Assembly: GCA_024280435.1 (NCBI GenBank)
Contig: JAJRQD010000026.1
Coordinates: forward strand, 11,257-75,256
Origin: an archaeon
GTDB lineage: Archaea; Asgardarchaeota; Heimdallarchaeia; Heimdallarchaeales; Kariarchaeaceae
DNA length: 64,000 nucleotides
Reading direction: 5' to 3'
Shown here piece after piece: positions 9,271-58,429 of the stretch; the stretch's first letter is position 1, and each line of letters opens with the position of its first letter. The position numbers and the translations under genes are program-made. The notes beneath the pieces are model-generated. The model was not told the DNA's origin and did no database searches. It was given only the letters and a program-made list of their open reading frames with translations.

Positions 9271-9297
9271 CTCACTCAGTCGTATGAAATACATAGC

Positions 9298-9651: not shown

Positions 9652-10009
9652 ACCTATATTAAGACATAATATTATTTAATTTTTACTCACATAGGGGTTA
9701 ACTATTTAGTATCTATTTTTTTAGTGTGATCTATTGAATGAAGCTACACCTGCTTTTATCTTCACATCAAGAAAATTTACCTCAGGAACCACCGTACAGT
9801 TGTAATTATCAGAATAATCACATAAAGAATTATATGCCATGTTAAGATCAATCACAATAAAATCACTATTTATTTCCTCATTAGAAACCTGAATTGTGAT
9901 CATCTTTTCACCTACAAATTTCAAAAATAAAAAGATTAGAATACATATTGTCTCATATAAAAACGATAATGTCATCAAATATATAAATAAGTAATTATAT
10001 ATCAATATT

Positions 10010-10339
10010 ATGGAAAACATAGAACAATTGAGATTAAAAGCCAAATTATTCAATGGATTCAGTGATGTATCCCGTTTGAGGATATTCCAGACACTTATTG
10101 ATAAACCAATGAATGTCGGAGAGATAGTTAAACTTACAGAACTTAGCCAACCAAATGTATCTTCACATTTGAAATGCCTGAATGATTGTAATCTTGTGAA
10201 AGCAAAAAAAGTAGGAAGAAAAGTGTTTTACTCACCTATCAATGATAAGATAAAAGAGATGATGCGATTAGCAGATGACATACTTCAATATATCTACAGT
10301 GATATAAACAGTTGTGTTAACTATGAGGTGAGCATTTGA
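10010..10339 (+). CDS. ArsR/SmtB-family metalloregulator
   Basis: 109 aa. HTH segment LRIFQTLIDKPMNVGEIVKLTELSQPNVSSHLKCLNDCNLV. Its stop overlaps the ATPase start (ATGA). Confidence 0.8.
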   Translation: MENIEQLRLKAKLFNGFSDVSRLRIFQTLIDKPMNVGEIVKLTELSQPNVSSHLKCLNDCNLVKAKKVGRKVFYSPINDKIKEMMRLADDILQYIYSDINSCVNYEVSI

Positions 10340-12288
10340 CAGAGCAGTTAATTGCATGTGATTGTGGTGGAGATTGTGCAGATATACCACAACTACATGA
10401 GAACGATAGTTTCATCAAAGTAATTGGACTACTAATAATCAAGAATAACAGATTCAAATATATTATCTACGCAACCATACTTGCATTTATTTCAATAATA
10501 CTCACATTAATACAATTCGATGAAATTGTGATAAACTTGCTCTGGATCAGCTCTGCAATTATGGGACTGGTAATACCCTTCAGAAGTGCTATAAAAAGTG
10601 CTAGGAAAAAGAACTTGACTATAAACACATTACTGGTTGTTGCCACTGTATCAGCAGTATTATTGCAGTTGTATGAGGAAGCTGTGCTGTTAGTGATTAT
10701 TTTTTCCATGGGTGAGATAATTGAGGGAGTACTTGTCAATATAACTGAGAGGGAGCTGGATATATTCAAAACACTAGTACCTGCAAACACAACTATCATC
10801 AATGATGAGGGCATGTCATTACCAATCAAGTCAGATAGTATTATTAAAGGTCAGAGAATACTGGTCAGAACGGGTGAGATAATACCAATTGATGGTGTTG
10901 TTGTAGATGGCTTGATAGAACTGCAGAACAGCCATATCACAGGAGAAGCTGAGATAGTTACAGTACAGAAGAACGATGCTGTTTTTGCAGGAGGTATTAT
11001 CATTTCAGGAAGTAGTACAATTATTGCCACAGCAGATGCAGGTGAGAACCAGGTGGATTTCATTGTAAAATCAGTGGAAGAGGCTTTGAAACAAAAATCC
11101 ACTGCTGAGAAATTCTCACAGAGATTTGCCAAGAGATATACACCCTTTACTTTTGTACTGGCATTGTTGGTAGCTATTGTCATGCCTTTACTCACAGATA
11201 TGAATTTCCAACTGTGGATAGTACGTGCACTGGTTATACTGGTGGTATCCTGTGCCTGTGGACTGGCTCTATCCGTACCAATAACAATGGTTGCAGCAAT
11301 ATCATCAGCTGCGAAAAGAGGAATACTGATCAGAGGTGGAGATGCCATCGAACAGTTATCAAAGATCAAGACAGTTGTATTTGACAAAACAGGTACTCTG
11401 ACCACAGGTGAACTGGAAGTTATTGATATCAAACTGTTCAATGGAGAGAATATAGATAGTGAGATATTTACACTTGTAAGCAGATCCAACCATCCAGTTT
11501 CCAGGAGTATAAAGCACTATCTTGAACAAAGAGGTGTGGTCAATGGAAAGGAAATCATCTCATTTGATGAGATTGCGGGAAGTGGTCTGATAGCAAAATT
11601 CAGCAACTTCAAATTATCATTGATCAAAGATAGTGAAAAACAGTATCAGAATGATATAATCTCGGTGTATGGCACGCCCAAAACATATTCTCTCCTGATA
11701 ATTGATGAAGTGATAAAGGGCTACATTGTACTCAATGATAAAATAAGAGAAAATGCGAGGGAAACTGTTGAAATACTGAAACAACAGGAGATCCATGTTG
11801 TGATGCTGAGTGGGGACAATTATGATGTATGCAAAGATGTGGCAGATCAGCTAGATATTGATTTCCATGCGGAGGTAAAACCACTTGAGAAAGTGGAGAA
11901 GATAAAGGAGATCCAGGAGAAATATGGATACACAGCGATGGTTGGTGATGGAATAAATGATGCAGCAGCTTTTGCAACATCAGATGTATCATTCGCAATG
12001 GGTCAGACAGGTACACAGATCGCATCTGAAGTAGCTGATGTGGTACTTATCAGAGACAATATTGAAGATATATCACACACAATTATCCATGGGAAGTATG
12101 CCTTTAGAATTGCCAAAATGAATGTACTGCTGGCATTATCAACAATATTTGTTCTGCTATCCCTTGCATTCATTGGAGTGCTTACTCTTGTTACGGGGAT
12201 ATTTGCCAATGAAGTGACTGCATTACTGATAATTACAAATGGATTAAGATTATTGAAATTCAGAGATAATTATTCAACCACTTTATAA
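10336..12288 (+). CDS. P1B-type heavy-metal translocating P-type ATPase
   Basis: 650 aa. DKTGTLT phosphorylation motif, TGEA actuator motif, MVGDGINDAAA hinge, N-terminal CDCGGDC. The TM6 metal motif reads SCACG (CAC rather than CPC). Confidence 0.85.
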   Translation: MTEQLIACDCGGDCADIPQLHENDSFIKVIGLLIIKNNRFKYIIYATILAFISIILTLIQFDEIVINLLWISSAIMGLVIPFRSAIKSARKKNLTINTLLVVATVSAVLLQLYEEAVLLVIIFSMGEIIEGVLVNITERELDIFKTLVPANTTIINDEGMSLPIKSDSIIKGQRILVRTGEIIPIDGVVVDGLIELQNSHITGEAEIVTVQKNDAVFAGGIIISGSSTIIATADAGENQVDFIVKSVEEALKQKSTAEKFSQRFAKRYTPFTFVLALLVAIVMPLLTDMNFQLWIVRALVILVVSCACGLALSVPITMVAAISSAAKRGILIRGGDAIEQLSKIKTVVFDKTGTLTTGELEVIDIKLFNGENIDSEIFTLVSRSNHPVSRSIKHYLEQRGVVNGKEIISFDEIAGSGLIAKFSNFKLSLIKDSEKQYQNDIISVYGTPKTYSLLIIDEVIKGYIVLNDKIRENARETVEILKQQEIHVVMLSGDNYDVCKDVADQLDIDFHAEVKPLEKVEKIKEIQEKYGYTAMVGDGINDAAAFATSDVSFAMGQTGTQIASEVADVVLIRDNIEDISHTIIHGKYAFRIAKMNVLLALSTIFVLLSLAFIGVLTLVTGIFANEVTALLIITNGLRLLKFRDNYSTTL

Positions 12289-17699: not shown

Positions 17700-19577
17700 T
17701 TATTTTTTCAGAGATAGAGCCATAATTTTCTCAACTCTTTTGGACATTTTATTGAAATCGGGTACATCTCCATCCGCCAATCTTGCATTATCAAGTATCT
17801 GATGTATAGTCAGATCGATAATCTCATCATCAGCATTTGCCTCAAATTTCTCATTAAGATCTTTGATTATCTCATGTTCGGGATTGAGTTGTAATACCTT
17901 GCCCATCATTGGTAGAGACATAGTGGAACCAGATTGAGTCTCCATTATCTTCATCGCCCTCTGAAGATCCGATGACATTCCACCTTTGGGTGTGACCAAA
18001 CGTGCAACAGCAGAGATCAGCCTATCAGATGTTTTTACATCTGCAATTGTACCTCCCAGAGTATCTGCAAAACGATCCATCAGTTTTCCAATAGGCCCTG
18101 TTCTCTCTTTCTTCTTAGGTTCCTCATCCTCTTCACCCTCTTTTGGCTCCTCTGGAGGATCTAATTCAACTGATTCATCCTGATCAATAAGGAAGAATTT
18201 TTTCTCATTGTAATCATGAAGATGCATCATTAAAAATGAGTCGATGGCTTCTCCTAGTAGGATAACCTCATAACCCTCTTTCTCATAATATTCAAGATGT
18301 GGGCTCTTTTTCAGTGCTTCAAGATCAAATCCGGACAGATAATATATCTCCTCCTGATCTGGTTTCATCCTCTCGACATACTGTGCAAGAGTTGTAGAAC
18401 CATCTTTTCCATCCTCATGTGTTGTGTGGAAACGAAGCAGTTCAACTAATCTATCCTTGAATTTATCATTGGATGCTATACCTTCTTTGATGAATGGACC
18501 AAACTCTCTGAAGAACTCAAGGTATTTCTCCCCATCATCCTTTGCCATATCCTCAAGTGTTGACAGGATCTTTTTGTGGAGATAATTCTTCATCTGTCTC
18601 TGCATTCTTGAACTCTGCACAACCTCACGGGATACATTTAGCTCAAAATCCTCTGCATCAACCACACCTATAACAAATCTAAGATACTCGGGTAATATAT
18701 CCTTGTTCTTATCATCAATCAGTATCTTTCGGTTGTAAAGTTTAATACCCCAATCACTATCCTGCTGATTGAACATTTTATTCTTTGTCGGGGGTATGTA
18801 CAGTAATCCATAGAATAGACTAGGTGATTCAACTCTTACGTGTATCTTAGTGGTGTAATCACCAAATTGACCGAGATGATTATAGAATTCTTTATACTGC
18901 TCATCAGTCACCTCACTGGGAGATACTCTCCAAAGTGCTGTTTGTTCATTTAATGTATCCTCACCCATTTTAATTGGAAACTCAATATAATTACTGTACT
19001 GACTTACAAGTGACTTTATTCGGTAGTCCTCAAGATATTCACTCTCATCCTCTTTGACATAGAGTATAATATCAGTACCTCGGGTATCCTTATCACACTC
19101 CTCAATTGAGAATGAATTCTGACCTGTTGAGCTCCATTTATGTGCCTTTTCACCAGGAATTGCAGATTTACTGATCACATCAACCTCATCTGCAACGAGA
19201 AATGTTGAGTAAAAGCCAACACCAAATTGACCAATAAGTGTCTCATCCCCACTCTCAATTGCTTTGATAAACTCCTCAGTACCGGACTGAGCAATTGTTC
19301 CCAGGTTCTTCACCATTTCATCCTTTGTCATACCAATACCATAGTCACGAATAGTGATTGTCTTGGCCTCTTTGTCAAGAATGATCTCAATCTCAAGTTC
19401 CCTCTCCTCATCAAAAATCTCCTCATTGGTAAGTTGTCTTATTCTTACCTTATTCAAGGCATCAGATGCGTTTGATAGGACCTCTCTCAGAAATACCTCT
19501 TTCTGTTGATAAAGGCTGTTGATTATGATATCTAATATCTTTGTTGTATCTGTCTTAAATTCATATTCTGAACTCAT
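17700..19577 (-). CDS. htpG: Hsp90-family chaperone HtpG
   Basis: 625 aa. GHKL ATPase N-terminus (FLRELISNASDALDK-like: FLREVLSNASDALNK), IGQFGVGFYS motif, and full middle and C-terminal domains. Confidence 0.9.
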   Translation of the reverse strand: MSSEYEFKTDTTKILDIIINSLYQQKEVFLREVLSNASDALNKVRIRQLTNEEIFDEERELEIEIILDKEAKTITIRDYGIGMTKDEMVKNLGTIAQSGTEEFIKAIESGDETLIGQFGVGFYSTFLVADEVDVISKSAIPGEKAHKWSSTGQNSFSIEECDKDTRGTDIILYVKEDESEYLEDYRIKSLVSQYSNYIEFPIKMGEDTLNEQTALWRVSPSEVTDEQYKEFYNHLGQFGDYTTKIHVRVESPSLFYGLLYIPPTKNKMFNQQDSDWGIKLYNRKILIDDKNKDILPEYLRFVIGVVDAEDFELNVSREVVQSSRMQRQMKNYLHKKILSTLEDMAKDDGEKYLEFFREFGPFIKEGIASNDKFKDRLVELLRFHTTHEDGKDGSTTLAQYVERMKPDQEEIYYLSGFDLEALKKSPHLEYYEKEGYEVILLGEAIDSFLMMHLHDYNEKKFFLIDQDESVELDPPEEPKEGEEDEEPKKKERTGPIGKLMDRFADTLGGTIADVKTSDRLISAVARLVTPKGGMSSDLQRAMKIMETQSGSTMSLPMMGKVLQLNPEHEIIKDLNEKFEANADDEIIDLTIHQILDNARLADGDVPDFNKMSKRVEKIMALSLKK

Positions 19578-37663: not shown

Positions 37664-40231
37664 TTACTCAATAATTACATGATCATTATCGAGATTTAGT
37701 CTGATCTCATTCTTATCAGTACCAGATAGCAGATAATTTGCCAATTCATTACTGATATATTTCTGTATCGCCCTTTTTAATGGTCTTGCACCAAACGCGG
37801 GATCATACCCTTTTTCAGCAAGAAATTCCTTGACCTCATCAGGTATTATCAGAGTGATATCCTGATCTGCAAGTCTATTATTTAACCTCTGTAGCTGTAT
37901 CTCAACAATACCCTTCATATCATCACGGGATAATGTTCTGAATATCACCAGCTCATCAAATCTATTGATAAATTCGGGTAGAAAATACATCTTCAATTCT
38001 TCAAAGACAGCCTTCTCGATCTCATCCATTAATTTGCCCTCACGGTTTAGCTCAAATATTTTGGCACTACCAACATTGCTGGTGGCAATTATCACAGTAT
38101 TGGTGAAATCAACAACTCTACCCTTGGCATCTGTGAGACGCCCATCATCTAGTATCTGCAAGAACATGTTGAATACATTTGGATGAGCTTTCTCCATCTC
38201 ATCAAGTAGTATGACAGAGTATGGCTTTCTTCTGACCTGTTCTGTTAGTTGGCCACCCTCATCATATCCAACATATCCCGGTGGGGAACCGATCAGTTTT
38301 GCCACAGAATGTGCTTCCTTGTACTCAGACATATCAATGCGAATTAGCATATTCTCATCATCAAATAGAAATTCAGCCAGTGACTTTGCCAGTTCAGTCT
38401 TTCCTACACCGGTAGAACCCATGAACAGGAATGAACCCAGTGGTCTATCAGTTGCGGTGATACCAGCTCTTGCACGTCTGATTGTCTGTGCTAATTTCTC
38501 CACAGCAACTTCCTGTCCGATCACTCTTTTGGTGAGTATCTGTTCCATATTCAGAAGTTTATCCTTCTCCTCCTGTACTATCTTGCTAGCTGGGATTCCA
38601 GTCCACAGAGCAATTATATTAGCAATATCAATCTCACCAATCTCCTCCCTTAACAAATTATCCGCACCCTCAGACAGTTTATCTTTTTCAGACTGAAGTT
38701 TTGCATTCAGATCGGGGAGTAAGCCATACTGTATACGTGCCATCTCATCAAGGTTACCAGATCTCTGAGCCTGTTCCATCATTATCTTGGTCTCCTCGAT
38801 TGCGGATTTGTACTTGCTGATATTATCAATTATATCTTTCTCCTGTTCCCATCTGACTTTTATGGCAGCTAGTTCAGTGGATAGTTGCTCAATCTGTTCC
38901 TCGATAGCTTTGACTCTATTCTTAGATACGGCATCGGTCTCTCTTCGTATACTATATTTCTCCATCTCAAGTTGTCGTATTTTCCTATCAAGTTCATCAA
39001 TCTCAGTGGGTACAGACTGTATCTCCATTGATAGAGCTGCTGCTGCCTCATCTAATAGATCTATCGCCTTATCAGGGAGGAACCTATCAGATATATATCT
39101 TGATGATAACACAGCAGCTGCAACTATTGCCTCATCATGTATACGAATGCCATGATGCACCTCATATTTCTCTTTAAGACCCCTGAGAATAGATATGGTA
39201 TCAGTCACGCTTGGTTCATCCACCATTATTTTCTGGAAACGTCTCTCCAGAGCACTATCTTTCTCGATATATTTTTTATACTCATCAAAGGTTGTTGCAC
39301 CGATGGCATGGAGAGAACCACGTGCAAGTGCAGGTTTCAGCAGGTTAGACGCATCCATTGCACCTTGTGTGGCACCAGCACCGACAAGTAGATGTATCTC
39401 ATCAAGGAAAAGAATTATCTGTCCCTCTGCCTCTTCTATCTCTTTGACAACAGCTTTCAATCTCTCCTCAAATTCACCCCTGAATTTTGCACCTGCAACC
39501 AGTGCACCCATATCAAGGGCCATGACAGTTTTATTTTTCAGTGATTCGGGTACATCCTGATTGACTATTCTCTGTGCAAGTCCCTCTACAATTGCTGTTT
39601 TTCCAGTACCAGGCTCACCTAGTAATATTGGATTATTTTTTGTTCTTCGGGATAGTATGTGTATCACACGTCTGATCTCTGCATCTCTGCCAATGACCGG
39701 ATCGAGCTTTCCCTTCATTGCCAGTTCTGAGAAATTGATAGCATATTGTTCGAGTGATTGGAATGAGTTCTCTGCATCCTGGTTATTTATTGCATTAGAT
39801 CCTCTAATTTCATCCAATGCCATCTCAATTGTTTTTTTAGAAATATTCTGATGACTTATTAGTTTCTGAAATGGTTTAGATTTGGCCAGCATTCCTTTGA
39901 TGATAGTATCAATTGATACATACTCATCATTGCTTGCAATCATTATTTTCTCGGCTTGATTAAGAGCAGAGTTCAGATCAGATGAGAGAGATGGAGAGCC
40001 TCCGGATACTTTTGGAAATTTATTGTATTCCTCTTCTATCTGATTTTTGAATAGTTGTATATTGGCACCTGCTTTCTGCAGAACTGATTGTAAAATACTC
40101 TGATCCTGTTCTAGAAGTATTTTAATCAGATGGATAGCAGATATTTCGGGGTGTTCGTTCATATCAGCCAGTGATTGTGCGTCTTGAATGGCTTCTTGAG
40201 CCTTGTATGTATATTTTCGTATATTTACCAT
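37664..40231 (-). CDS. clpB: ClpB (Hsp100) disaggregase
   Basis: 855 aa; two AAA+ modules (GEPGTGKT and GSTGVGKTE Walker A motifs) with a coiled-coil middle domain. Confidence 0.9.
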
Positions 40232-44970: not shown

Positions 44971-45030
44971 TACTTATTGCCTATATTATAAATTATATTA
45001 AATATTGTTTTATTAAACAATATCAAATAC

Positions 45031-45287
45031 TCCTGTATCTATCATCTCTTTTTTTATACATTCTCACACAGAAACCACAAAGCATTGTATCTATATGCAG
45101 ACAGGCACCACAGAACCCTTTTCTACATAATTTACATCTTATCGATACATGTTTTATTCTGCAACTACTGCATAACTCTAGATACATTAACAATCTACAA
45201 ACAATATGGTCTATATGTATTATTTATACAATCGGGATTTTTGTTCACGCAACCATCTGAAGTGAGATAATTGATAGAGATACAGGA
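45031..45287 (+). ncRNA. Candidate structured leader/ncRNA upstream of the RT operon (inverted repeats plus long hairpin)
   Basis: 10-bp inverted repeat TCCTGTATCT (45031-45040) / AGATACAGGA (45278-45287) flanks a bulged 14-bp hairpin (45087-45100 pairing with 45168-45185). The GTATCTA motif recurs four times. The region is GC-richer than its surroundings and has no plausible ORF (45085..45270 is low complexity). Confidence 0.3.
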
Positions 45288-45325
45288 AAAGATAGATTAA
45301 ATACTAATAATATCTACATTTTATT

Positions 45326-47056
45326 ATGAGTTTGGATTGGCTTGCCTCCGTTCGATTATTCTTTAGAGATGAAAAAGAGGCATTTCTATTTCTTGGAACA
45401 GAACAAAAGCCCAGATCCACATATATCAGAATCACAGATAGATTTGATAAACCTAGATACTACCCCCCCATCCCGCTTGATAAATTACAGGAAAAATTCA
45501 ACCTCAATATAACTCTTGATAACTCACTCATAAATGATGAATTCAAACTATTGTTATCACTTATTATCAGAGAGAGATTGAGCAACCCAATTATTCAATA
45601 CAATGAGGAACTTTCCAATTGGATTGACAATGGAGTTGAGAGTGATATATTGGGATATATAATACAGATAATCAGCAATGATAAAAGAATTGCAAGACAG
45701 CATGCACTCTATAAACTAGTTAAAACACGATCAGATACATCTGAGATAGTATTAACATGTATGATAGATCTGAGAGAGGAGATCAGTATTGCTATTATCA
45801 GAGAATTAGGCAGATGGAGTATATGTCTTGACCGTGCATTAAAATTCTCCAAAGATAATACTGAAACAAAAGGGGCACTTGGATTTTACTCAAAATTGTA
45901 CCTGATCAGATATAATAAACAGACCATGGACATCAGTGATGTAAAACAAAGTATCACCCTTGTTAAGAAATTCAATTCAATTCACAAAATCAAATTTGAT
46001 ATGAAAAATATACCATATCTGACTTTTGAGGGCCTACCTTATCTTGCCACTTCAGACAAAGAGCTTTATGCCAAGATAATAGATAAATTGGTCAAATACA
46101 GATTATCAGGCAAAAATTACCGGGCTGCATTGATGCGAATAGTAAAATATGCAGAAATACTAGAATCTGTGGAACTAGTAGGGGGATTAGTGTGCTTGAC
46201 ACTGAATAATCGTTCAGTACATATTTATAGAGAAAAACAAACTATATATTTCCATGAAGATGAATTTATTGTGTACCCCCGACAGAGATTATTATCTCTG
46301 ATAAATATATGGGAAATTACTGGAAGAGATGATCTGCTTGATGCAGTACTGATATTTATCATCAGACATATACCGGCAGAGATCAATCTATTTGGAAAAA
46401 CCAGATACAAATATATCAATATGACACAATGGTTGGACACAATGCCACTGATAAAAGATCATTCTGACAGGATACAATTGATACTGTATAACGATCAGGA
46501 ATTATTACGAGACATTATAATTCATTTATCTAGAAATTTTAATCTACATTTCTACACCTGGTTACTTCAACATATAGATAATGAGATTATTAAGGAAATA
46601 CTATCAGAATTGAGCTTCAATGATAAATTACATATATACAGCTCGGCATATGTTTACCCACCGGATTTCAATCTATTGCATTATCTGAAAAAATACAGCA
46701 AGAATGCTTCCTTTGGACATTGTGATTTTGTTCCAACAAAGGATAGTCTCAAACAGACACTTAGTTTTTTCTATAGATTAAGATTTATACTGCCAGATAG
46801 AATATTCGATCAAATTGCAGAACTAATTCATGATGATAATTACAAGAAAATGAATATACACTCATTGTTGATCAAATATATGAAAAAAGTAATTTATCGT
46901 CACAAAAAAATATCAGATAGATATGCAAATATAATTCTTGAGAGAATAATCAATAATAGACACAGCAATTGTAAATTATGTGTGAACCAGTTAGATTATC
47001 TGAATAACTGGAAAAATATACCACTCATTCAATCCCAGAGGCTTGGCAGGACATAA
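45326..47056 (+). CDS. RT-operon gene 1: large alpha-helical repeat protein, function unknown
   Basis: 576 aa, predicted all-alpha with HEAT/ARM-like periodicity, no catalytic motif. First gene of a co-directional four-gene block. Confidence 0.5.
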   Translation: MSLDWLASVRLFFRDEKEAFLFLGTEQKPRSTYIRITDRFDKPRYYPPIPLDKLQEKFNLNITLDNSLINDEFKLLLSLIIRERLSNPIIQYNEELSNWIDNGVESDILGYIIQIISNDKRIARQHALYKLVKTRSDTSEIVLTCMIDLREEISIAIIRELGRWSICLDRALKFSKDNTETKGALGFYSKLYLIRYNKQTMDISDVKQSITLVKKFNSIHKIKFDMKNIPYLTFEGLPYLATSDKELYAKIIDKLVKYRLSGKNYRAALMRIVKYAEILESVELVGGLVCLTLNNRSVHIYREKQTIYFHEDEFIVYPRQRLLSLINIWEITGRDDLLDAVLIFIIRHIPAEINLFGKTRYKYINMTQWLDTMPLIKDHSDRIQLILYNDQELLRDIIIHLSRNFNLHFYTWLLQHIDNEIIKEILSELSFNDKLHIYSSAYVYPPDFNLLHYLKKYSKNASFGHCDFVPTKDSLKQTLSFFYRLRFILPDRIFDQIAELIHDDNYKKMNIHSLLIKYMKKVIYRHKKISDRYANIILERIINNRHSNCKLCVNQLDYLNNWKNIPLIQSQRLGRT

Positions 47057-47157
47057 TTACAGGTATAGAGATTGTACATAAGGAGATAATAGGTAAAATT
47101 TCAGTTGATGCTATCACACCCCTGACAATCAAAACAATAACCACAAGTTACAGAATA

Positions 47158-48114
47158 ATGAATGGTATGATACATCCCATTATAGAGGATAATATTAAAT
47201 TTGCATTGAACAAATACAACTGGGATCAACTAGCAAGACATTATCTGGCTCTTGGATTGGAAAGACCACAAAGAGAGGCATTAATAGCTTCAGAATTGAA
47301 AAATATTCCGAAAATGTTACTCAGAGACCAGCTAGGAAGGATTGCGCTGGTCAGTCAAACTATACTGTACGGAATGGATTTTGGATTCACTCCAGCTCTG
47401 GAGAATGTGATAATCAATAATATATACATGCGAGGTTGGAATATTGATAATAATATACAGAACAGACTGATCAGATTACTTGCTAGTGTTTCATTCAAAT
47501 TCAGATCATTCATTGCTGCCTATTTAATTCTTGAGAAAAGTGAGGTGAATAATGAGATACTGTTATTGGCAAGAGATGTATCATCTAAAATAATCAGAGA
47601 TAGATTACTAAGAACTCTTGAGAGATTTGGCTCTGCGGATATGTGGTATGCACTTGCAGGTTCAACATTTGAAGATCTAGCAGAAACTGCAACAGAACAG
47701 CTGAGAAGACTCAGAATGGGTAAAGAGGACAGATTACGTTTGATACAGACATTACTGAATTCAGAGAAGATAGAGCTGAGACAGATGGCACTGAGATGGA
47801 TGCTGAATCTTGAGTTTATAGAAGATGAGACAATTCCACTGTTCACATCCATATATACAGATACATGGTCAGATCTGATTGATTACTTCAATACCCATAT
47901 AAGATATATAAAAGAGACATATCCTGATTTCAAAAATATAATACAAGATATGATCTGGCGAATTGCAAGCCCTGTCAAGAGCAATGATAAAATTGTGGCA
48001 CTGGCAAGCAAGTTTGATGAACTGAGATCCACTCTTGATGAGCTGAGCAATACCAAAATTAAGAGCAGGTCTGCTGTGATACTACAGAAAATAGTTGGTG
48101 AATTCAATGATTGA
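47158..48114 (+). CDS. RT-operon gene 2: HEAT/PBS-lyase-like repeat protein
   Basis: 318 aa; repeated about 30-aa helical hairpins (LLARDVSSKIIRDRLLRTLERFGSADMWYALAGSTFEDLAETATEQL; RLRLIQTLLNSEKIELRQMALRWML). Confidence 0.5.
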   Translation: MNGMIHPIIEDNIKFALNKYNWDQLARHYLALGLERPQREALIASELKNIPKMLLRDQLGRIALVSQTILYGMDFGFTPALENVIINNIYMRGWNIDNNIQNRLIRLLASVSFKFRSFIAAYLILEKSEVNNEILLLARDVSSKIIRDRLLRTLERFGSADMWYALAGSTFEDLAETATEQLRRLRMGKEDRLRLIQTLLNSEKIELRQMALRWMLNLEFIEDETIPLFTSIYTDTWSDLIDYFNTHIRYIKETYPDFKNIIQDMIWRIASPVKSNDKIVALASKFDELRSTLDELSNTKIKSRSAVILQKIVGEFND

Positions 48115-49570
48115 GATCAAATATTCTGTATCTAATGAGACTGCTGTGGCAAAAAAAGATGATAATATAGTCTATCATTTTGCAACTGATGAAACTCACA
48201 ACAGATTCAATATCACACTGCTCGATCCAAACAAATATCTATATGCATTGAGATCTTCCCTATCAATTCTATTTGACAGGAAAATAATGATCGAACCGGA
48301 TAGATCACAGTATGAACTGTGGTTGGAGTATGAATTATTGAGAATAAGTGAAAAACAATACAATACACAGTCTACAAGAGAAGATGTTGATATCGAGGAT
48401 TATGAGACAATAAAAGAGAGAAGGGATGACTTGCTTGTCAGAGTACGTTCTCAGATAGCATATATGGATAAAGCAGTTAAAAAAATACCACTAGTGAAGA
48501 AAAGACTGATATTTCTGTGGGGTAATTATACATTACCAATATTAAGCTGCTTAGAAAATTATTTCAACATTCATGTATTCACAGATGAACTATACACTGA
48601 ACTATCAATCAAATCACCAAAGATTAGGTTTTATCATGGATTTACAGAGATTACACCCCTGTTCTACGAATCAATAGAAAGTCTTAATCGTGATAGAATT
48701 GTATTTACCAACGAGAGAATCGAGAAAAGACCTGAGATAGCGATTACAAAACTCAACAGATATGAAGAGAATGTAATTGATAATATGCACCTCAGCCAGG
48801 TATTGCTCTATTTTATCAAAAATACCAGTGTAGCCAAACATATAGAGCTGAATAGAGTACAGACCTATGACCTGCTCAGCAAGATAAACAGTATCAGAGG
48901 AGAATTCACACTAGCTATAAAATCAGGTAAGGAATACTCAATATCAATAAAAGATAAAATTGTTAATATAACAATTAAACAGGGTAAGAAAACATCTATC
49001 AGAATTACAATACCTGCTACATTTATCAGATCAATTGAGTTGGTGTTACCATATATCAGAAAGATCAGAATATCAGATACATTGATCGGATCTGTTATAC
49101 AGGTATACACAGATAATTTCATGATGAGCACCTGTCATCTGCAAGAGAATACAATAGAGCTGTATAATATACTGTACAGCATGTATAATTTTGATAGCCC
49201 TAACAAAGATGCAGTTATCAACCAGCTGAAAAATAGAGACTATGCAAATGTAAAATTATTCAATAACAATGAACTATTACAGTTAATTATGGAGGGTAAG
49301 ATCAGATATATCTCAAATAGTAATTCAGTCATCTACAAAAATATGTACAGCTACAACAGAACAAACCAATATACCAATGCAATGTGGTTAAGGAAGATAA
49401 TCCGTACAATTATGGTGTACAGTAAAACCAAGTATACCTGTATTATTGAGGATCATGATATCTCAGTCAGAATATCAAATAGAATACAGGGAGGCTGTAG
49501 TTGTGGAAAATCATGTGATTATGAGATTGCTTTGAAAGCAATAATACTGGAGGATAAACATTATGAGTGA
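48095..49570 (+). CDS. RT-operon gene 3: hypothetical protein (mixed alpha/beta, C-terminal Cys cluster)
   Basis: 491 aa; overlaps gene 2 by 20 nt and the RT by 8 nt (translational coupling). Ends ...GGCSCGKSCDYE. Confidence 0.5.
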   Translation: MVNSMIEIKYSVSNETAVAKKDDNIVYHFATDETHNRFNITLLDPNKYLYALRSSLSILFDRKIMIEPDRSQYELWLEYELLRISEKQYNTQSTREDVDIEDYETIKERRDDLLVRVRSQIAYMDKAVKKIPLVKKRLIFLWGNYTLPILSCLENYFNIHVFTDELYTELSIKSPKIRFYHGFTEITPLFYESIESLNRDRIVFTNERIEKRPEIAITKLNRYEENVIDNMHLSQVLLYFIKNTSVAKHIELNRVQTYDLLSKINSIRGEFTLAIKSGKEYSISIKDKIVNITIKQGKKTSIRITIPATFIRSIELVLPYIRKIRISDTLIGSVIQVYTDNFMMSTCHLQENTIELYNILYSMYNFDSPNKDAVINQLKNRDYANVKLFNNNELLQLIMEGKIRYISNSNSVIYKNMYSYNRTNQYTNAMWLRKIIRTIMVYSKTKYTCIIEDHDISVRISNRIQGGCSCGKSCDYEIALKAIILEDKHYE

Positions 49571-50876
49571 GAAGATAAACAAATTAATGAAAATATTCCA
49601 GGAGCTCAACGATCTAGGTCTGTGGCCAAGATCTATCTCACCACCAGATCCACAGGCACTTGAGAGAATTTATAATCTTGATGTGGATCTGTATAATCGT
49701 AAGTACAAATTATCAGTACCAGATGACAGAGATATTGAAGAGATCAGAGAAGAATACTCCAAAGAGAGTAAAAAAATAAGAGAGAGAAAACGTGTAAAAC
49801 GAGCACAGAAGGAGAGGAGAAAGAGACAGGAATGGAAAAAACTGAAAGAAACTCAGTTTACATATCTTGGGAAAGGTGTATCAGCCAAATTATCATCAAC
49901 AGATGAGAATACTGAATTGATAAAAAAACTAGAATTACCAAGTATAGAAAATGCAGATAAGTTATGTGAGTTTCTGGAAATCGAATTTGATCAGCTTGTA
50001 TGGATGGTATATCACCGAAAAAATAATAGATTCAGCAATTATATAGATTTTGAGATACCCAAAAAAAGTGGAGGAGTGAGAAAAATATCTGCTCCAAAAC
50101 CTTATCTGAAGAGAGTACAGTATATAATCAAAGAGAAAATACTAGATAAGATAGTGTTACCAGATCATGTTATGGGTTTTAAAAACAAAACCTCGATATT
50201 TGACAATGCAAGAGAACATCTCAATGCAGAGATACTGATAAATGTAGATATAGAGAATTTTTTTCAATCAATACGTTATTTCAGAGTAAGATCCATGTTC
50301 ATTAGATTTGGATACTCTGGTGAGATTGCCACCGTGTTATCACTGCTATGTACCAAACAGTATCAGAAGACAGTCAAGATAGGTGAAATCATACATTATG
50401 TGTTCTCAGAGAGCAGATACTTGCCACAAGGTGCACCTACAAGTCCTGTAATCAGCAATATCATTGCATTACCAATGGATAGAAATATCAAGGAGAGAGT
50501 TGAGAAACTTGGCTATAGATACACAAGATATGCGGATGATATCTCAATATCCACAATCAAGAGAGATAAGAAGATAAAAGCAGTGATGAGTATTGTGCAT
50601 CGTACCATGACAATGCATGGATTCAGTATTAACAATAACAAAACAAAAATACGGGGAAAGCATGAGAGACAGGAAGTTACAGGTCTGGTGATTAATTCGG
50701 GAGAGGTGAGAATACCCCGATGGTGGAGGAGAATTTTAAGAGCAAGGATAAACAGATTTATCAGCACAAATGAGGGTGATCCACTATCTTTGCTAGCAAG
50801 TATTGCATATCTAGACACTACCCATCCAGAACTGGCAAATAAGTATCTACAACAGATTATCGATAAAACTAGCTGA
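49563..50876 (+). CDS. Reverse transcriptase, retron-type
   Basis: Motifs 1/2 FEIPKKSGGVRKISAPKPYLKRVQ; NAxxH (NAREH); motif 3 NVDIENFFQSI; motif 4 LPQGAPTSPVISN; motif 5 RYADDISIS; motif 6 NNNKTKI; motif 7 VTGLVIN. N-terminal about 110-aa basic coiled extension. No maturase X or endonuclease domain. Confidence 0.85.
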   Translation: MSEKINKLMKIFQELNDLGLWPRSISPPDPQALERIYNLDVDLYNRKYKLSVPDDRDIEEIREEYSKESKKIRERKRVKRAQKERRKRQEWKKLKETQFTYLGKGVSAKLSSTDENTELIKKLELPSIENADKLCEFLEIEFDQLVWMVYHRKNNRFSNYIDFEIPKKSGGVRKISAPKPYLKRVQYIIKEKILDKIVLPDHVMGFKNKTSIFDNAREHLNAEILINVDIENFFQSIRYFRVRSMFIRFGYSGEIATVLSLLCTKQYQKTVKIGEIIHYVFSESRYLPQGAPTSPVISNIIALPMDRNIKERVEKLGYRYTRYADDISISTIKRDKKIKAVMSIVHRTMTMHGFSINNNKTKIRGKHERQEVTGLVINSGEVRIPRWWRRILRARINRFISTNEGDPLSLLASIAYLDTTHPELANKYLQQIIDKTS

Positions 50877-53298
50877 TATATCTGGCAAGCAGTTTTCTCA
50901 TGCTACCAGTTGACTGATATGCAATTCCGTTGACATTGTGGACTGCATTATCCTTTATTATATTTTTCAGCAGTAGCTCAAATCGTTTTCCCACATGATC
51001 ACATTGATATTTTATCATTTTTGGTATTTTATCCAGCTTAGAGAATGCAATAAAACGATCATTAACAATATCACCAACATATTTGAAATATACATCCACC
51101 ATTCTTTCTCTTGCATATGGTACACTCAGTTTCAGAGCATCATGATATGAGTACAGATCAACCTCAGAGATCTGATCATGTGTATCCTCAATAATTCCAA
51201 CTATCACTGCAATATCATCCTTCTTATTCACAATTGCACGCTCATATACTTTGAAAGGGCGAAAATGCAGCTCTCTTCGGATCTCTGGATGTGGATCAAC
51301 TGGAAATTCCACACCCTGCTTATCCTGTATTGATTTTGTATTTGTAGAATGAGTCATCCAGTATCTTTTGTATTTTGAAGGGTTGTATCGATGAAATTTA
51401 TCTGTGAAAATATATGATACTGCGTGTTCCAGATCAATATATGACGGGAATTTGAATACTATTCCCTCCTCTTCCATCTCAATTGACAGTAGATCATCAA
51501 TCAGATGTGTCACAAATGGTAATTCTTTTCTGTGATACTCATCTCTCTCACGATCATAAACCACCAATCTGATCATGGGCGATAGTGCAGAGATGGTTTT
51601 CCCGGTTTTCGTATGAAAATCATAATCATCTGAATACAATGATACACCTGCAATAAAGCGTTTGTTTGGAGAGATTTTGACCAGTAATGGTACTCCTAAC
51701 TCAAAGGATAGTAGAGGAATATTATTTCCTATACTCCATAAATAACATCTACCATCATAAGATACAGTTGCCACAAAATTATCAACCCTTGCCCACATAG
51801 GTGCAATCCCATAAAAATTATGCCCATCCACCTCAAGATCTCCATAGATCATACGATTTGAGTCCTCGGGATAGTTATCATAGGTTAGCTCGGTTATCAG
51901 TTCTAATTTACTCCAGTACTCTATAAAGTAATAAAGAGAGGAGAGGGATAGTCTTATCTGATCAACTGTTGTACCACCATATTTTATATCTATCAACACA
52001 CTATGCCACTCTCTTACGATTAGATTTGATAGATTATCTCTTTTTGATAGAAAATCATCTTCCTCTACCTTTACATGTTTCTCCTGATTATACAGTATTT
52101 CAGTTGAATTATTCAACTCTCGTTTTTTAAGCATACCCAGTGGGGGAGAACCACCAGCATCCCATTCCAGTAAATATCTTTTATTCTCTTCCAATAATAC
52201 AAATGTATTTTTCTTATATCTAGTTACTGGAAAATCAATGCAGGTATTATCAAACATATCAAATAATGTGTGATTACTACCATCTGCAATCATAAAAAAA
52301 CCTTCTGCAACATTAATTCTTGATAGTCGTTGATTTATTCTTCCTGCAAATAAAAAACTGGGGGCATTACTGAAAAAAATATTTTCTTGTTTTATATGAT
52401 CTGCCAGTGATCGAGATAGTATTTTTTCAGTACAGATCATCTCGCCACCTTGATTAGATATGGTATAGAAATCTTTTTCCCGGTATAGCACACCATATCC
52501 ATCAAAGCTGACAATTGCACCATTTGGATTTTTCTTACGATTAGTTGTAATGAAAAAATCGGGTGATTGATAGACTATAAGCTTATCCAGTAAATAGATG
52601 ATCAAAATACTATTGTGTACAAGATACTGTCTCATACCAGGAGGAAGTTGTAATCGTGGAGTTCTTCTGAACTCACCATAGATGACTATCTCTCCATTGA
52701 GTTCTGTATCATTCTGACGAATTATCTGTTTTCTAACATTATCAATCTTCTTGTTGAATAATCTCTCACCATTCAGCACAAATACTCCAGAGCTAATCTT
52801 GTAGTATATCCTGTTGTCATATATCCATGAAAAATCAACAACAATCTTCTTACCACCTATCTCTTTGATACTTCCCCCGGAGTACACATATAATTTGTTA
52901 TTCAGCCGGATAATATAGTTAATCCGATCCCTGATTTTAAAGAAAGACAGTTTCTTGTTCTCATACACATCCCAGATCAAACACTGCTCATCACCTATGA
53001 TTGCAAGATTAGGTGTATTTCGTACCCATTTTATATCTTTGACAGAGATTGGAGATATAATTATAGAGATAAGGTCAGATACATTCTCTTTTTTCTGCCA
53101 CACGATAATATTATCAGTACCATCTGTTGCAGCATATCGTTCCTGATTCACCACTGCAATCTGGATATCTTGAAAATTGAATTCAATCCATGCATATACC
53201 GATAACATATAATTTATTCTAAATCCATTTAATAATAATTTTATTACAAATATATTGCTAGAAGTTATAAATATTTGAATTGGATACCAAATATTCAT
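50869..53298 (-). CDS. Large hypothetical protein, beta-propeller-like N-terminal half
   Basis: 809 aa. WD-like blades (NIIVWQKKEN, CLIWDVYENKK, RCYLWSIGNN). Its 3' end overlaps the RT 3' end by 8 nt (convergent). Confidence 0.5.
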   Translation of the reverse strand: MNIWYPIQIFITSSNIFVIKLLLNGFRINYMLSVYAWIEFNFQDIQIAVVNQERYAATDGTDNIIVWQKKENVSDLISIIISPISVKDIKWVRNTPNLAIIGDEQCLIWDVYENKKLSFFKIRDRINYIIRLNNKLYVYSGGSIKEIGGKKIVVDFSWIYDNRIYYKISSGVFVLNGERLFNKKIDNVRKQIIRQNDTELNGEIVIYGEFRRTPRLQLPPGMRQYLVHNSILIIYLLDKLIVYQSPDFFITTNRKKNPNGAIVSFDGYGVLYREKDFYTISNQGGEMICTEKILSRSLADHIKQENIFFSNAPSFLFAGRINQRLSRINVAEGFFMIADGSNHTLFDMFDNTCIDFPVTRYKKNTFVLLEENKRYLLEWDAGGSPPLGMLKKRELNNSTEILYNQEKHVKVEEDDFLSKRDNLSNLIVREWHSVLIDIKYGGTTVDQIRLSLSSLYYFIEYWSKLELITELTYDNYPEDSNRMIYGDLEVDGHNFYGIAPMWARVDNFVATVSYDGRCYLWSIGNNIPLLSFELGVPLLVKISPNKRFIAGVSLYSDDYDFHTKTGKTISALSPMIRLVVYDRERDEYHRKELPFVTHLIDDLLSIEMEEEGIVFKFPSYIDLEHAVSYIFTDKFHRYNPSKYKRYWMTHSTNTKSIQDKQGVEFPVDPHPEIRRELHFRPFKVYERAIVNKKDDIAVIVGIIEDTHDQISEVDLYSYHDALKLSVPYARERMVDVYFKYVGDIVNDRFIAFSKLDKIPKMIKYQCDHVGKRFELLLKNIIKDNAVHNVNGIAYQSTGSMRKLLARYIS

Positions 53299-53379
53299 CT
53301 ATTGATGATCTATTTTATATTACTTACAAAATTCATTGAATTATACTTCTTGGCATTGAGTCTTGATTGATTCTAGTGT

Positions 53380-53620
53380 GATGTTTCGTCATGCATTGAG
53401 CAAACACAATATATTCAAAGAATCGGTGATCATCGTCACTTGGTTTCCTCTGTCGCTTCTTTGCACGTGCATAAGTTCCTATTGCAGAAACTTTAATGCT
53501 CCTGAGGACCTGTTCCTGTATATCACCGACTCCTGAGAGCGTCAGCTACTACACTGCGTTACATACGCTCTCCTTTTCGCAAGAAGTACACGATTGGTTG
53601 AAAGACCAATCATTATTTTT
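53380..53620. ncRNA. Candidate structured ncRNA in GC-rich ORF-free block
   Basis: About 240 bp at roughly 45% GC, against a background of about 30%. No ORF. Stems GAGAGCG/CGCTCTC (53540-53572) and GTGA/TCAC; duplicated CTCCTGAG. Class and strand undetermined. Confidence 0.3.
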
Positions 53621-57274: not shown

Positions 57275-58429
57275 TCATTCAAATGTATCAAAGTATTCAT
57301 CCAATGTTTTTACCTGTTCTATATTCTTGTAATCCTCGATTACAAGCTCAGTATTCTCGCCTAGAATTGATTTACGATATATCTCCCGGAGTACATTGAT
57401 TGATATGAATTTATTGTCATAATAACAGTACCAATAATCCCAGCCATTATTATTTTTTATATTAAGTAAATATGCGGATAATGAATGTATAGACCCGGAG
57501 ATATTCCCCGAGATAACACTTGCATCTGCTTTGACAATTGCAGATTTACTCTTATCTCTGGAATAGATTGTATCGCCAATATTGATCATCTTAGCATCTA
57601 TTAACTGAGAGAATTTCACCCGGGTGGCATTTTTCCGGTTAAAAGTGGTGTATACATTCTCAGGTATATTCTTATCAACCACTATACTATTAATACGCTC
57701 ATTTGCAACAGAGATATATTTTTGATCTCTCTCTATTCCAAGCCAGTTTCTCTTCAGTTTTTTTGCGACTGCACCAGTTGTGCCAGATCCGAAGAATGGA
57801 TCAAGTACGACATCACCAATATTTGAGGAGGATAATATCACACGATTGAGTAATGCCTCAGGTTTCTGTGTGGGATGTGCCTTTACTCCATCTATCTTCA
57901 CTCGTTCACTACCCTGGCATATTGGTATGAGCCAATCACTTCTCATCTGTTTATTATCATTGAATCGTTTCATTGTCTGATAATGAAAGGTGAATTTTGA
58001 TTTTTTTGATTTAGATGCCCAGATAATAGTTTCATGGGCATTGTTGAATCTAGTACCTTTGAAATTGGGTGTGGGATTGACCTTTATCCAGACAATATCA
58101 TTTAGTATCCAGAAATCCATATCCTGCATGATATTTCCGATTCTGAAAATATTGTGATAGGTACCTATTACCCAGATAGATCCAGTATCTTTCAGTATTC
58201 TTCTGCATTCTCTTAGCCATGCAATACTGAATTTATCATATTCTTTCATAGTATCAAATTTATCCCATTCATCCTCCACTCCTTCAAATTTATTCTCATT
58301 TGGTCGAATGAGTTCATTCTCAAGCTGTAAATTGTATGGTGGATCTGCAAATATCAAATCAATTGAATTATCGGGTAATTCTCTGAGTTTATCTATAGAA
58401 TCACCTTGGATAATTCTGTTGATAATCAT
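57275..58429 (-). CDS. DNA N6-adenine/N4-cytosine methyltransferase (beta class) with long C-terminal extension
   Basis: Motif IV DPPY (LIFADPPYNL) near the N-terminus and motif I FFGSGTTG downstream (beta-class order). An extra C-terminal domain of about 100 aa follows. Confidence 0.8.
   Translation of the reverse strand: MIINRIIQGDSIDKLRELPDNSIDLIFADPPYNLQLENELIRPNENKFEGVEDEWDKFDTMKEYDKFSIAWLRECRRILKDTGSIWVIGTYHNIFRIGNIMQDMDFWILNDIVWIKVNPTPNFKGTRFNNAHETIIWASKSKKSKFTFHYQTMKRFNDNKQMRSDWLIPICQGSERVKIDGVKAHPTQKPEALLNRVILSSSNIGDVVLDPFFGSGTTGAVAKKLKRNWLGIERDQKYISVANERINSIVVDKNIPENVYTTFNRKNATRVKFSQLIDAKMINIGDTIYSRDKSKSAIVKADASVISGNISGSIHSLSAYLLNIKNNNGWDYWYCYYDNKFISINVLREIYRKSILGENTELVIEDYKNIEQVKTLDEYFDTFE

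What the first reader, a model, noticed from the sequence alone, without database searches (positions are those of the whole stretch)
44971..50876. Four-gene, translationally coupled operon ending in a retron-type reverse transcriptase, with no recognisable effector
The RT (49563-50876) carries the full retron-type motif set: FEIPKKSGGVRKISAP, NAxxH, QGAPTSP, RYADD, VTGLVIN. It lacks maturase and endonuclease domains, so it is not a group II intron, and it lacks the DGR-type motif. It is the last of four co-directional genes with overlapping stops and starts (48095/48114 and 49563/49570). The three upstream genes encode large alpha-helical/HEAT-like or unassignable proteins (576, 318 and 491 aa). 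None has an ATPase, nuclease, TIR, NDT, protease or other domain used by described retron or defence-RT effectors. Retron-type RTs are rare in archaea, and helical-repeat modules are usually fused to UG/Abi RTs rather than encoded separately. This operon architecture is therefore a candidate for an undescribed RT-based system, either defence or RNA-templated DNA synthesis.
Basis: partly seen in the sequence, partly recalled or inferred. Interest (0 to 1): 0.85.

Follow-up and report, generated by a model that had tools for sequence, protein, structure and literature searches.

The report
Divergent type XIII retron in Heimdallarchaeia
The operon is not a new kind of reverse-transcriptase system but a very diverged, vertically inherited Asgard-archaeal branch of the known type XIII retrons (the Mx162 family), with its template RNA gene moved 2.4 kb away next to an extra lineage-specific gene.

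The parts
45326..48114 (+). Gene for the large helical (HEAT/ARM-type) partner, ~929 aa when intact. In this window it is split into 45326-47056 (576 aa) and 47158-48114 (318 aa) by a 1-nt shorter A-run at 47012-47016.
   Evidence: L004 (99.8% identical) has one 929-aa ORF. Relatives encode 915-1033 aa. Weak PADLOC WGR_XIII and HEAT-ARM_XIII hits. hhalign against 35 bacterial WGR_XIII neighbours: local 91.2%, E 1e-6; global 96.9%, E 2.8e-10. The N-terminal 170 aa show no WGR similarity.
48107..49570 (+). Gene for the SWIM_XIII-family partner (487 aa from ATG 48107). It has a predicted DNA-clamp-like core and a degenerate C-terminal SWIM finger, CSCGKSCDY.
49563..50876 (+). Retron reverse transcriptase of the type XIII clade (437 aa), with an intact YADD.
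   Evidence: PADLOC RT_XIII 1.6e-122, 408 bits, model positions 47-420 of 469; next best 243 bits. Best solved relatives are retron Ec86, Ec67 and Ec78 RTs. The NCBIfam group II RT score is 63 against a cut-off of 300.
50869..53298 (-). Lineage-specific ~800-aa protein gene, convergent with the RT and overlapping it by 8 nt. It is beta-rich with weak WD40 signal. It is a candidate fourth component.
   Evidence: Homologues occur in all 10 archaeal loci and in none of 80 bacterial type XIII loci. Only 3 clusters were found in the 5.8-billion-protein search. Weak WDR5 and WD40 matches. Not related to the bacterial partner proteins. The AF2 model is unusable, pLDDT 38.
53344..53588 (+). Predicted retron ncRNA (msr-msd). 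Sub-features: a2 53344-53352; candidate branching G 53353; msr hairpin 1 53358-53373; msr hairpin 2 53376-53394; long msd hairpin 53420-53532; opposing G 53579; a1 53580-53588.
   Evidence: 81% (L008) and 71% (L005) DNA identity, although the RTs are ~55% identical. Found in 9 further loci. Covariation score 0.333 against 0.170 shuffled, 0/500; hairpin 2 is 100% paired. Terminal stem and msd stem covary, and the U.G pairs fix the strand. Reciprocal CM hits with bacterial type XIII msr.
53313..53322 (+). TATA-like box TTTTATATTA, about 26 nt upstream of a2. Possible archaeal promoter of the ncRNA.
   Evidence: Read from the sequence. Similar AT-rich boxes sit at the same distance in L008, L005 and L006. 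Inference only.
53592..53620 (+). Hairpin GATTGGT/ACCAATC followed by a T5 run directly after a1. Possible terminator.
   Evidence: Read from the sequence. T5 to T10 runs follow a1 in L008, L005 and L090. Inference only.

Best explanation
This is a Heimdallarchaeial (Asgard) branch of the type XIII retrons, the family of Mx162, Mx65, Sa163 and Ne144.

Inferred mechanism, by homology with characterised retrons:
1. The ~245-nt RNA from 53344-53588 folds so that a2 and a1 pair.
2. The RT binds the conserved msr hairpins.
3. The RT primes from the 2'-OH of G53353 and copies the msd part into a ~150-165-nt branched msDNA with a long hairpin.
4. The SWIM-family protein, predicted to have a sliding-clamp-like core, and the ~929-aa HEAT/ARM scaffold assemble on the RT-msDNA particle.

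What this lineage changes:
- The RNA gene is a separate unit 2.4 kb from the RT.
- The RNA gene is always placed at the 5' end of a lineage-specific ~800-aa beta-rich protein gene. That protein is probably a fourth component.
- In the window's subclade, the SWIM histidine and two of the DEDE acidic residues are replaced.

Shown: family membership of the RT, the SWIM partner and the HEAT/ARM part; the RNA's conservation, structure and homology to type XIII msr; synteny.

Inferred: msDNA synthesis, complex formation, the role of the 800-aa protein, and the biological output. The output could be defence or, given strictly vertical inheritance in a housekeeping neighbourhood, a domesticated cellular role.
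For: RT:
- RT_XIII 408 bits, full length.
- In a rough NJ tree the archaeal clade is monophyletic and lies beside the bacterial type XIII RTs.

SWIM partner:
-.

HEAT/ARM partner:
-.

Gene order and conservation:
- The order large-SWIM-RT with overlapping stops and starts occurs in 8 independent archaeal loci. This is the order in canonical bacterial loci such as L058 (WGR_XIII 1103 bits, SWIM_XIII 789 bits).

ncRNA:
- Conservation exceeds that of the neighbouring proteins.
- a1/a2 repeats with compensatory changes, and opposing Gs, in all six full-length copies compared.
- Covariation statistics.
- The hairpin GAUGUUUCGUC is identical to Bacteroidota type XIII msr.
- A CM built from bacterial msr puts 4 of its top 5 hits on this element.
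- A CM built from archaeal msr hits bacterial msr just upstream of the RT in 10 loci.
- The length between the repeats (232-258 nt) matches the bacterial type XIII ncRNAs (210-255 nt).

Vertical inheritance:
- The window and L005 share asparaginase, a Yip1-like gene, Abhydrolase_11, the system and abhydrolase_1, at 29-72% protein identity.
- ClpB is nearby in three loci.
- No close relative was found on viral contigs.
Against: - No experiment: msDNA, transcription and phenotype are untested.
- The window's own SWIM partner lacks the fourth zinc ligand and two conserved acidic residues.
- The large partner is frameshifted in this assembly, so this copy could be decaying, or the assembly could be wrong.
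- No WGR domain is detectable.
- PADLOC partner models do not reach significance on the window proteins themselves.
- The ncRNA is not contiguous with the RT, unlike most described retrons.
- Individual CM E-values across domains are marginal (0.003 to 2.7). The argument rests on their coincidence with the independently defined element.
- The clamp fold rests on a 7-sequence AF2 model of mean pLDDT 61.
- The tree is neighbour-joining, midpoint-rooted, without support values or other retron types.
Confidence: 0.85

Rival explanations
1. An undescribed RT-based system unrelated to known retron types. The three upstream proteins would be novel effectors.
For: Pfam, NCBIfam and PADLOC give no significant hit for the 576-aa and 491-aa proteins, and only weak hits for the 318-aa protein.
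Against: The RT is a full-length RT_XIII match. Profile-profile and transitive searches tie both partners to the type XIII partner families. The gene order equals the bacterial type XIII order. The RNA shares the type XIII msr hairpin.
Confidence: 0.04
2. A decaying or non-functional retron remnant in this particular genome. The scaffold gene is frameshifted, the SWIM finger degenerate and the DEDE residues lost, and it persists only through linkage.
For: A 1-nt frameshift in an A-run splits the 929-aa gene. H to Y in the SWIM motif, and D/E to N/H in the acidic motif, in the window subclade.
Against: The sister assembly has the intact gene. Apart from the 1-nt indel, only 3 substitutions fall in the 2.8-kb gene, which suggests a homopolymer error or a very recent change. 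The RT catalytic motifs are intact. All genes and the RNA are conserved across relatives with 38-55% RT identity. The SWIM and DEDE substitutions are shared by a whole subclade with otherwise conserved proteins, which points to changed rather than lost function.
Confidence: 0.07
3. The conserved RNA element at 53344-53588 is not the retron template. It would be an unrelated structured RNA or a regulatory leader of the ~800-aa gene. The 800-aa gene would be an ordinary neighbour, and the true retron ncRNA would lie elsewhere or be absent.
For: The element always adjoins the 800-aa gene rather than the RT. In five loci it is co-directional with and upstream of that gene, like a leader. In L006 and L090 it lies 2-3 genes away from the RT operon.
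Against: It has every retron ncRNA hallmark: a1/a2 repeats, opposing Gs, two short msr hairpins and a long msd hairpin of type XIII size. It shares the msr hairpin sequence with bacterial type XIII, with reciprocal CM hits. Its orientation relative to the 800-aa gene flips between subclades, which does not fit a leader. No other candidate element is conserved near the operon. The 800-aa family was not seen apart from these loci.
Confidence: 0.04

Closest known systems
Type XIII retrons (RT clade 10 of Mestre et al. 2020: Retron-Mxa1/Mx162, Mxa2/Mx65, Sau1/Sa163, Nex2/Ne144). PADLOC models RT_XIII, SWIM_XIII, WGR_XIII and HEAT-ARM_XIII.
   Same: RT clade. A partner with a C-terminal SWIM finger. 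A ~900-1100-aa HEAT/ARM partner encoded upstream in the order large-SWIM-RT. An ncRNA of ~230-255 nt with a1/a2 repeats, opposing Gs, the GAUGUUUCGUC msr hairpin and a long msd hairpin. A tendency to vertical inheritance (PMC7736814).
   Different: The host is archaeal (Heimdallarchaeia). The ncRNA is not next to the RT: it is a separate unit 2.4 kb away, beside an extra ~800-aa gene that bacterial loci lack. No gap exists between the SWIM gene and the RT. No WGR domain is detectable. The first DEDE aspartate is absent in all archaeal members, and the window subclade also lacks the next D/E and the SWIM histidine. The partners fall below the curated HMM thresholds.
Bacillota and Hermodarchaeota subgroup of type XIII (Lachnospiraceae loci L014-L029, L082; Thermoactinomycetaceae L079).
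   Same: The SWIM gene abuts the RT with no intergenic ncRNA. In L079 the msr-like element lies upstream of the whole operon, so a displaced ncRNA has a bacterial precedent.
   Different: Their partner proteins are canonical (SWIM_XIII 597 bits in L082). No 800-aa gene is present. Their RTs form a separate clade. The Hermodarchaeota copy looks like a transfer from Bacillota, unlike the deep Heimdall clade.
Structurally characterised retrons (Ec86 type II-A, Ec78/Ec83 type I-A, Ec67).
   Same: The RT core is homologous (phmmer 4e-32 to 3e-17). The presumed 2'-5' branched priming from a conserved G next to the a1/a2 stem is the same.
   Different: Their effectors (NDT, PtuAB ATPase/HNH, Toprim) are unrelated. 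Their msDNAs are much shorter. No structure exists for any type XIII partner.
DNA sliding clamps (PCNA, beta-clamp, 9-1-1).
   Different: No sequence similarity. The partner has an extra N-terminal region, a long helix, and a C-terminal helical domain plus SWIM finger. Ring formation is unknown. The bacterial homologues carry invariant acidic residues in this region, which clamps do not.

Membership tests
Retron type XIII | RT belongs to the type XIII clade (clade 10). | tested here: met
   PADLOC RT_XIII 1.6e-122, 408 bits, near full length; the next model (RT-TIR_XII) scores 243 bits. The L001 homologue scores 389 bits. The NJ tree places the clade beside bacterial type XIII RTs.
Retron type XIII | Retron RT signature motifs (NAxxH, VTG) and a catalytic YADD. 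| tested here: met
   NAREH, VTGLVIN and RYADD are present in the translation.
Retron type XIII | Associated cluster-114-type protein (the SWIM_XIII family). | tested here: met
   hhalign 99.5%, E 6.2e-23, 497 columns against 40 bacterial neighbours confirmed as SWIM_XIII. Transitive hits P0129-P0131.
Retron type XIII | C-terminal SWIM zinc finger CxCxnCxH in that protein. | tested here: not met
   The window protein has CSCGKSCDY, with Y in place of H and a short spacer. Five of 8 archaeal family members keep CxCx4-8CxH.
Retron type XIII | Central acidic Dx7[D]x4Ex30-32Dx37E (DEDE) motif. | tested here: not met
   Aligned positions in the window protein are L, N, H, E and an unclear fifth position. 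The L089-L092 subclade keeps the second D and the E. The bacterial residues are invariant.
Retron type XIII | Accessory HEAT/ARM-repeat protein encoded upstream of the SWIM gene. | tested here: met
   Same position and size. hhalign local 91.2%, E 1e-6; global 96.9%, E 2.8e-10 against bacterial WGR_XIII neighbours. Weak PADLOC WGR_XIII and HEAT-ARM_XIII hits.
Retron type XIII | N-terminal WGR-like domain in the cluster-216 accessory protein. | tested here: inconclusive
   The N-terminal 170 aa of the archaeal family show no similarity to the bacterial N-termini (hhalign probability 0.1%). Bacterial L058 has Pfam WGR at 5.7e-9. Some described type XIII variants have HEAT/ARM proteins without WGR.
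Retron type XIII | msr-msd ncRNA with a1/a2 repeats, opposing Gs, short msr hairpins, a long msd hairpin, and the type XIII-specific structure. | tested here: met
   for structure and covariation. for the shared msr hairpin and reciprocal CM hits with bacterial type XIII.
Retron (general) | ncRNA gene contiguous with the RT gene. | tested here: not met
   The element lies 2.4 kb downstream of the RT stop, beyond a convergent gene. In L006 and L090 other genes also intervene.
Retron (general) | Production of branched msDNA. | not testable with these tools
   Needs expression and nucleic-acid analysis.
Group II intron | RT with a maturase (X) domain, often an endonuclease domain, and intron RNA domains I-VI. 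| tested here: not met
   TIGR04416 scores 63 bits against a cut-off of 300. Only RVT_1 is found in Pfam. No Rfam intron match in the window.
DNA sliding clamp superfamily | Two-domain beta-alpha-beta clamp fold. | tested here: inconclusive

The most novel reading that the evidence does not exclude
Heimdallarchaeia carry an ancient, vertically inherited four-protein version of the type XIII retron. In it the template RNA is uncoupled from the RT and is genetically coupled to a lineage-specific ~800-aa WD40-like protein, which acts as the output module. It is co-transcribed with the RNA in one subclade. The SWIM partner would be a sliding-clamp-fold protein that grips the long msDNA duplex. The system would serve a domesticated cellular function rather than, or in addition to, virus defence.
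Probability: 0.35. Interest if true: 0.7.

Novelty: new variant of a known kind. Interest (0 to 1): 0.55.

Why it matters
- Type XIII is the oldest known retron family (Mx162), and I found no report of how its partner proteins work in the library searched.\n- This locus shows the family reaches deep into the Asgard archaea. It is kept at one chromosomal place while its proteins diverge to 30-55% identity. That pattern argues for a long-retained function.\n- It shows that curated defence HMMs miss the partner proteins, so such systems are likely under-counted in archaea.\n- It gives three testable leads. First, an RNA gene detached from the RT. Second, an extra obligatorily linked protein. Third, a clamp-like fold for the SWIM partner, which suggests how type XIII complexes might read their unusually long msDNA.\n- The predicted ~150-165-nt msDNA from an archaeal RT may also interest retron-based DNA production.

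Tried and rejected
- The 355-nt region upstream of the operon (44971-45325) has a perfect 10-nt inverted repeat 237 nt apart (I7). I considered it as a1/a2. It is rejected because it is not conserved in any relative and neither CM hits it.\n- Rfam gave no family at gathering threshold in the window, and only chance-level hits at E<=10 around the locus and the RNA element.\n- The genome-contig scan with the SWIM-partner alignment found nothing. One alignment had no usable pattern, and the other gave no confirmed relative. Co-occurrence beyond my 10 loci is therefore untested.\n- The sequence HMM of the bacterial ncRNA does not reach the archaeal element. Structure-aware models were needed.\n- The AF2 model of the 809-aa protein is too poor to use (pLDDT 38).\n- The afdb50 fold library was unavailable.\n- Profile searches of PDB with all three partner families found no solved relative.\n- The 800-aa family is not a diverged copy of either bacterial partner.\n- Literature searches found no paper on Asgard retrons or on a clamp fold in type XIII partners in the held library.


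Full report
**Observation**

The RT matches Pfam RVT_1 at 3e-27 and carries NAREH, QGAPTSP, RYADD and VTGLVIN.

Three details needed correction.

- The 576-aa and 318-aa ORFs are 100 nt apart and in different frames. A second public assembly of nearly the same genome (L004, GCA_024278115.1) is 99.8% identical over 10.9 kb. It differs by one extra A in the run at window 47012-47016, and there it encodes a single 929-aa protein. Relatives encode 915-1033 aa at this position. The operon therefore has three genes, one of them frameshifted, or mis-assembled, in the window.
- The third gene most likely starts at ATG 48107. That start follows GGTGA and gives the overlap ATGATTGA. The RT start at 49563 follows GGAGGA with the overlap ATGAGTGA.
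- The 355 nt before the first gene are not conserved.

**What the RT is**

- Against PADLOC, the RT matches RT_XIII at 1.6e-122 (408 bits, model positions 47-420 of 469). The next retron type scores 243 bits.
- The NCBIfam group II intron model scores 63 bits against a cut-off of 300.
- The best solved relatives are retron RTs: Ec86, Ec67, Ec78 and Ec83.

Type XIII is clade 10 of Mestre et al. 2020, the family of Mx162, Mx65, Sa163 and Ne144. It is described as an RT with three further parts (PMC7736814):

- a protein with a DEDE motif, a winged helix and a C-terminal SWIM finger;
- usually an upstream WGR/HEAT-ARM or HEAT-ARM protein;
- a distinct ncRNA.

**Host and relatives**

The closest RTs (38-55% identity, about 19 clusters) come from MAGs named Candidatus Heimdallarchaeota or Kariarchaeaceae. 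Bacterial type XIII RTs follow at 33-40%. In a rough NJ tree the archaeal sequences form one deep clade outside the bacterial groups. A Hermodarchaeota RT (L082) instead groups with Lachnospiraceae.

I read eight independent archaeal loci that include the genes upstream of the RT. All have the order large gene, middle gene, RT, with overlapping or nearly abutting stops and starts. A ninth, L008, holds only the end of the middle gene and the RT.

The window and L005 also share the flanking asparaginase, Yip1-like, Abhydrolase_11 and abhydrolase_1 genes. Protein identities are 29-72%. ClpB lies nearby in three loci. No close relative was found on viral contigs. This pattern indicates vertical inheritance in a housekeeping neighbourhood, not a mobile island.

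**The upstream proteins**

Curated libraries are nearly blind to these proteins, so I used the 80 bacterial loci fetched. Their RT neighbours are canonical. For example, L058 scores WGR_XIII 1103 bits and SWIM_XIII 789 bits.

Middle protein (SWIM partner):
- An HMM of the archaeal middle protein ranked the bacterial SWIM neighbours at the top.
- Profile-profile comparison of eight archaeal members with 40 bacterial ones gave 99.5% probability, E 6.2e-23, over 497 columns.
- A whole-library profile search reached three further proteins of 549-568 aa, one from Kariarchaeaceae. These hit SWIM_XIII at 2e-25 to 4e-19.
- Five of eight archaeal members keep CxCxnCxH. The window, L001 and L005 have Y or F instead of H.
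- Of the bacterial invariant acidic residues, the first D is absent in all archaeal members. The next D and E are kept in the L089-L092 subclade and replaced by N and H in the window.

Large protein (HEAT/ARM partner):
- It aligns with the bacterial WGR_XIII neighbours at 91.2% (E 1e-6, C-terminal 156 columns) locally.
- Globally it aligns at 96.9% (E 2.8e-10, 883 columns).
- Its N-terminus shows no WGR similarity.

**The RNA**

No space for an ncRNA exists before the RT. The intergenic region on the far side of the convergent 809-aa gene is 81% identical to L008 and 71% to L005 over about 285 nt, although the RTs are only ~55% identical.

Features of the conserved block:
- It is bounded by TACTTCTTG (53344-53352) and CAAGAAGTA (53580-53588), each followed or preceded by a G. 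This is the "two opposing G" arrangement of retron ncRNAs.
- The stem covaries: CUUCCUG/CAGGAUG in L008, CUCUCG/CGAGAG in L006, CUCUUG/CAAGAG in L089.
- Inside are two short hairpins, a ~113-nt hairpin whose basal stem covaries extensively, and a 3' hairpin.
- Two U.G pairs are invariant in hairpin 2, and L090 has a U.G pair in its terminal stem. These fix the strand as window +.
- On an alignment of nine copies, hairpin 2 is 100% paired, with double-sided changes at 3 of 8 pairs. The covariation score is 0.333 against 0.170 for shuffles (0/500) and at most 0.135 for slid controls.
- A TATA-like box lies about 26 nt upstream, and a hairpin plus T-run lies directly downstream. This is inference only.

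Link to type XIII:
- The bacterial ncRNAs, which are IR-flanked and 210-255 nt long just upstream of the RT, show ..CCUU|GCA after a2 and ACG|AAGG before a1.
- In Bacteroidota they have two msr hairpins. The second is GAUGAUGUUUCGUCAUC, against GUGUGAUGUUUCGUCAUGC in the window.
- A CM built only from nine bacterial msr sequences placed 4 of its 5 best hits in 183 kb of archaeal DNA on this hairpin, on the predicted strand.
- A CM built only from six archaeal copies found the element in three more archaeal loci (L092 at E 8e-8, L091, and a truncated copy in L001). It also hit bacterial msr sites just upstream of the RT in ten loci, at E 0.003 to 2.7.

Each cross-domain E-value is marginal. The coincidence with independently defined elements is not.

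**The fourth gene**

- The 809-aa protein has homologues of 756-849 aa in all ten archaeal loci and in none of the 80 bacterial loci.
- The large protein search found only three clusters.
- It is unrelated to the bacterial partner proteins.
- It shows only weak WD40 signals, and its AF2 model is unusable.

The RNA element always lies at its 5' end. It is divergent from the gene in the window, L001, L005 and L008. It is co-directional and upstream in L006, L089, L090, L091 and L092. In L092 a 219-aa ORF lies between. In L006 and L090 the RNA and the 800-aa gene have moved together 2-3 genes away from the RT operon. I read this as evidence for a functional link, but common descent of a neighbourhood cannot be excluded. 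The metagenome scan meant to test co-occurrence failed.

**Fold of the SWIM partner**

**Mechanism**

By homology with studied retrons, the RNA folds and the RT binds the msr hairpins. The RT then primes from the 2'-OH of G53353 and copies the msd into a ~150-165-nt branched DNA. The SWIM/clamp-like protein and the HEAT/ARM scaffold join the particle. The 800-aa protein is the best candidate for an output or regulatory module in this lineage. All of these steps are inferred.

Whether the system defends against viruses is open. Mestre et al. already noted vertical inheritance for type XIII and suggested possible domestication, and this locus fits that pattern strongly.

**Comparison and novelty**

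Archaeal retron RTs are known to exist but are rare: 4% of archaeal RTs (PMC8632793). A 2026 survey lists type XIII only across bacterial phyla. This locus is a member of the type XIII family by its RT, SWIM partner, HEAT/ARM partner and RNA.

It differs in five ways:
- the host domain;
- the detached, separately placed RNA gene. A displaced ncRNA also occurs in the bacterium L079, upstream of the operon;
- the extra linked gene;
- the degenerate SWIM and DEDE motifs;
- the absence of a detectable WGR domain.

I rate it a new variant of a known kind, with interest 0.55.

Noticed in passing
L020:5101-5982; L067:2246-3070; also L032, L053, L056, L058, L075, L080, L012: Several bacterial type XIII retron loci carry 2-4 tandem copies of the msr-msd element upstream of the RT (nhmmer E 1e-10 to 1e-37). 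They have similar msr parts and differing msd parts.
   Followed up: no
L079:5267-5357: In Thermoflavimicrobium dichotomicum the msr-like element (CM E 0.004) lies upstream of the WGR gene, giving the order ncRNA-WGR-SWIM-RT. In the Lachnospiraceae and Hermodarchaeota (L082) loci the SWIM gene abuts the RT and no ncRNA was detected with my models.
   Followed up: partly
window 47012-47016: An A5 run in the window against A6 in the 99.8%-identical assembly GCA_024278115.1. It splits the 929-aa gene and is either a homopolymer assembly error or a strain polymorphism.
   Followed up: partly
window 57275-58429 (-); L089:13268-15259; L091:10020-11936: DNA methyltransferase genes lie a few kb from the system: N6_N4_Mtase plus RAMA in the window, and N6_Mtase/Eco57I-type next to an NYN-domain gene in L089 and L091. 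The NYN gene adjoins the RNA element in L006, L089, L090 and L091.
   Followed up: no
window 37664-40231 (-), 17700-19577 (-): ClpB and Hsp90 homologues. ClpB is also within 8 kb of the retron in L006 and L092, so a wider housekeeping synteny block is conserved around the system.
   Followed up: partly
window 45031-45040 / 45278-45287: A perfect 10-nt inverted repeat 237 nt apart in the operon leader. It mimics a retron a1/a2 pair but is not conserved in any relative.
   Followed up: yes
L082 (Candidatus Hermodarchaeota, JBHLLE010000043.1) 7242-10525: A second Asgard lineage carries a canonical, Bacillota-like type XIII retron (SWIM_XIII 597 bits). Its RT groups with Lachnospiraceae, which suggests a separate horizontal acquisition.
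   Followed up: partly
window 52720-52780 region of the 809-aa protein (residues ~660-695): The most conserved stretch of the ~800-aa family is GxEFPxxPHPEIxRE...D, with invariant G662, E664, H670, P671, E672, R675 and D694. It could be an active site, but it matches no known motif.
   Followed up: no
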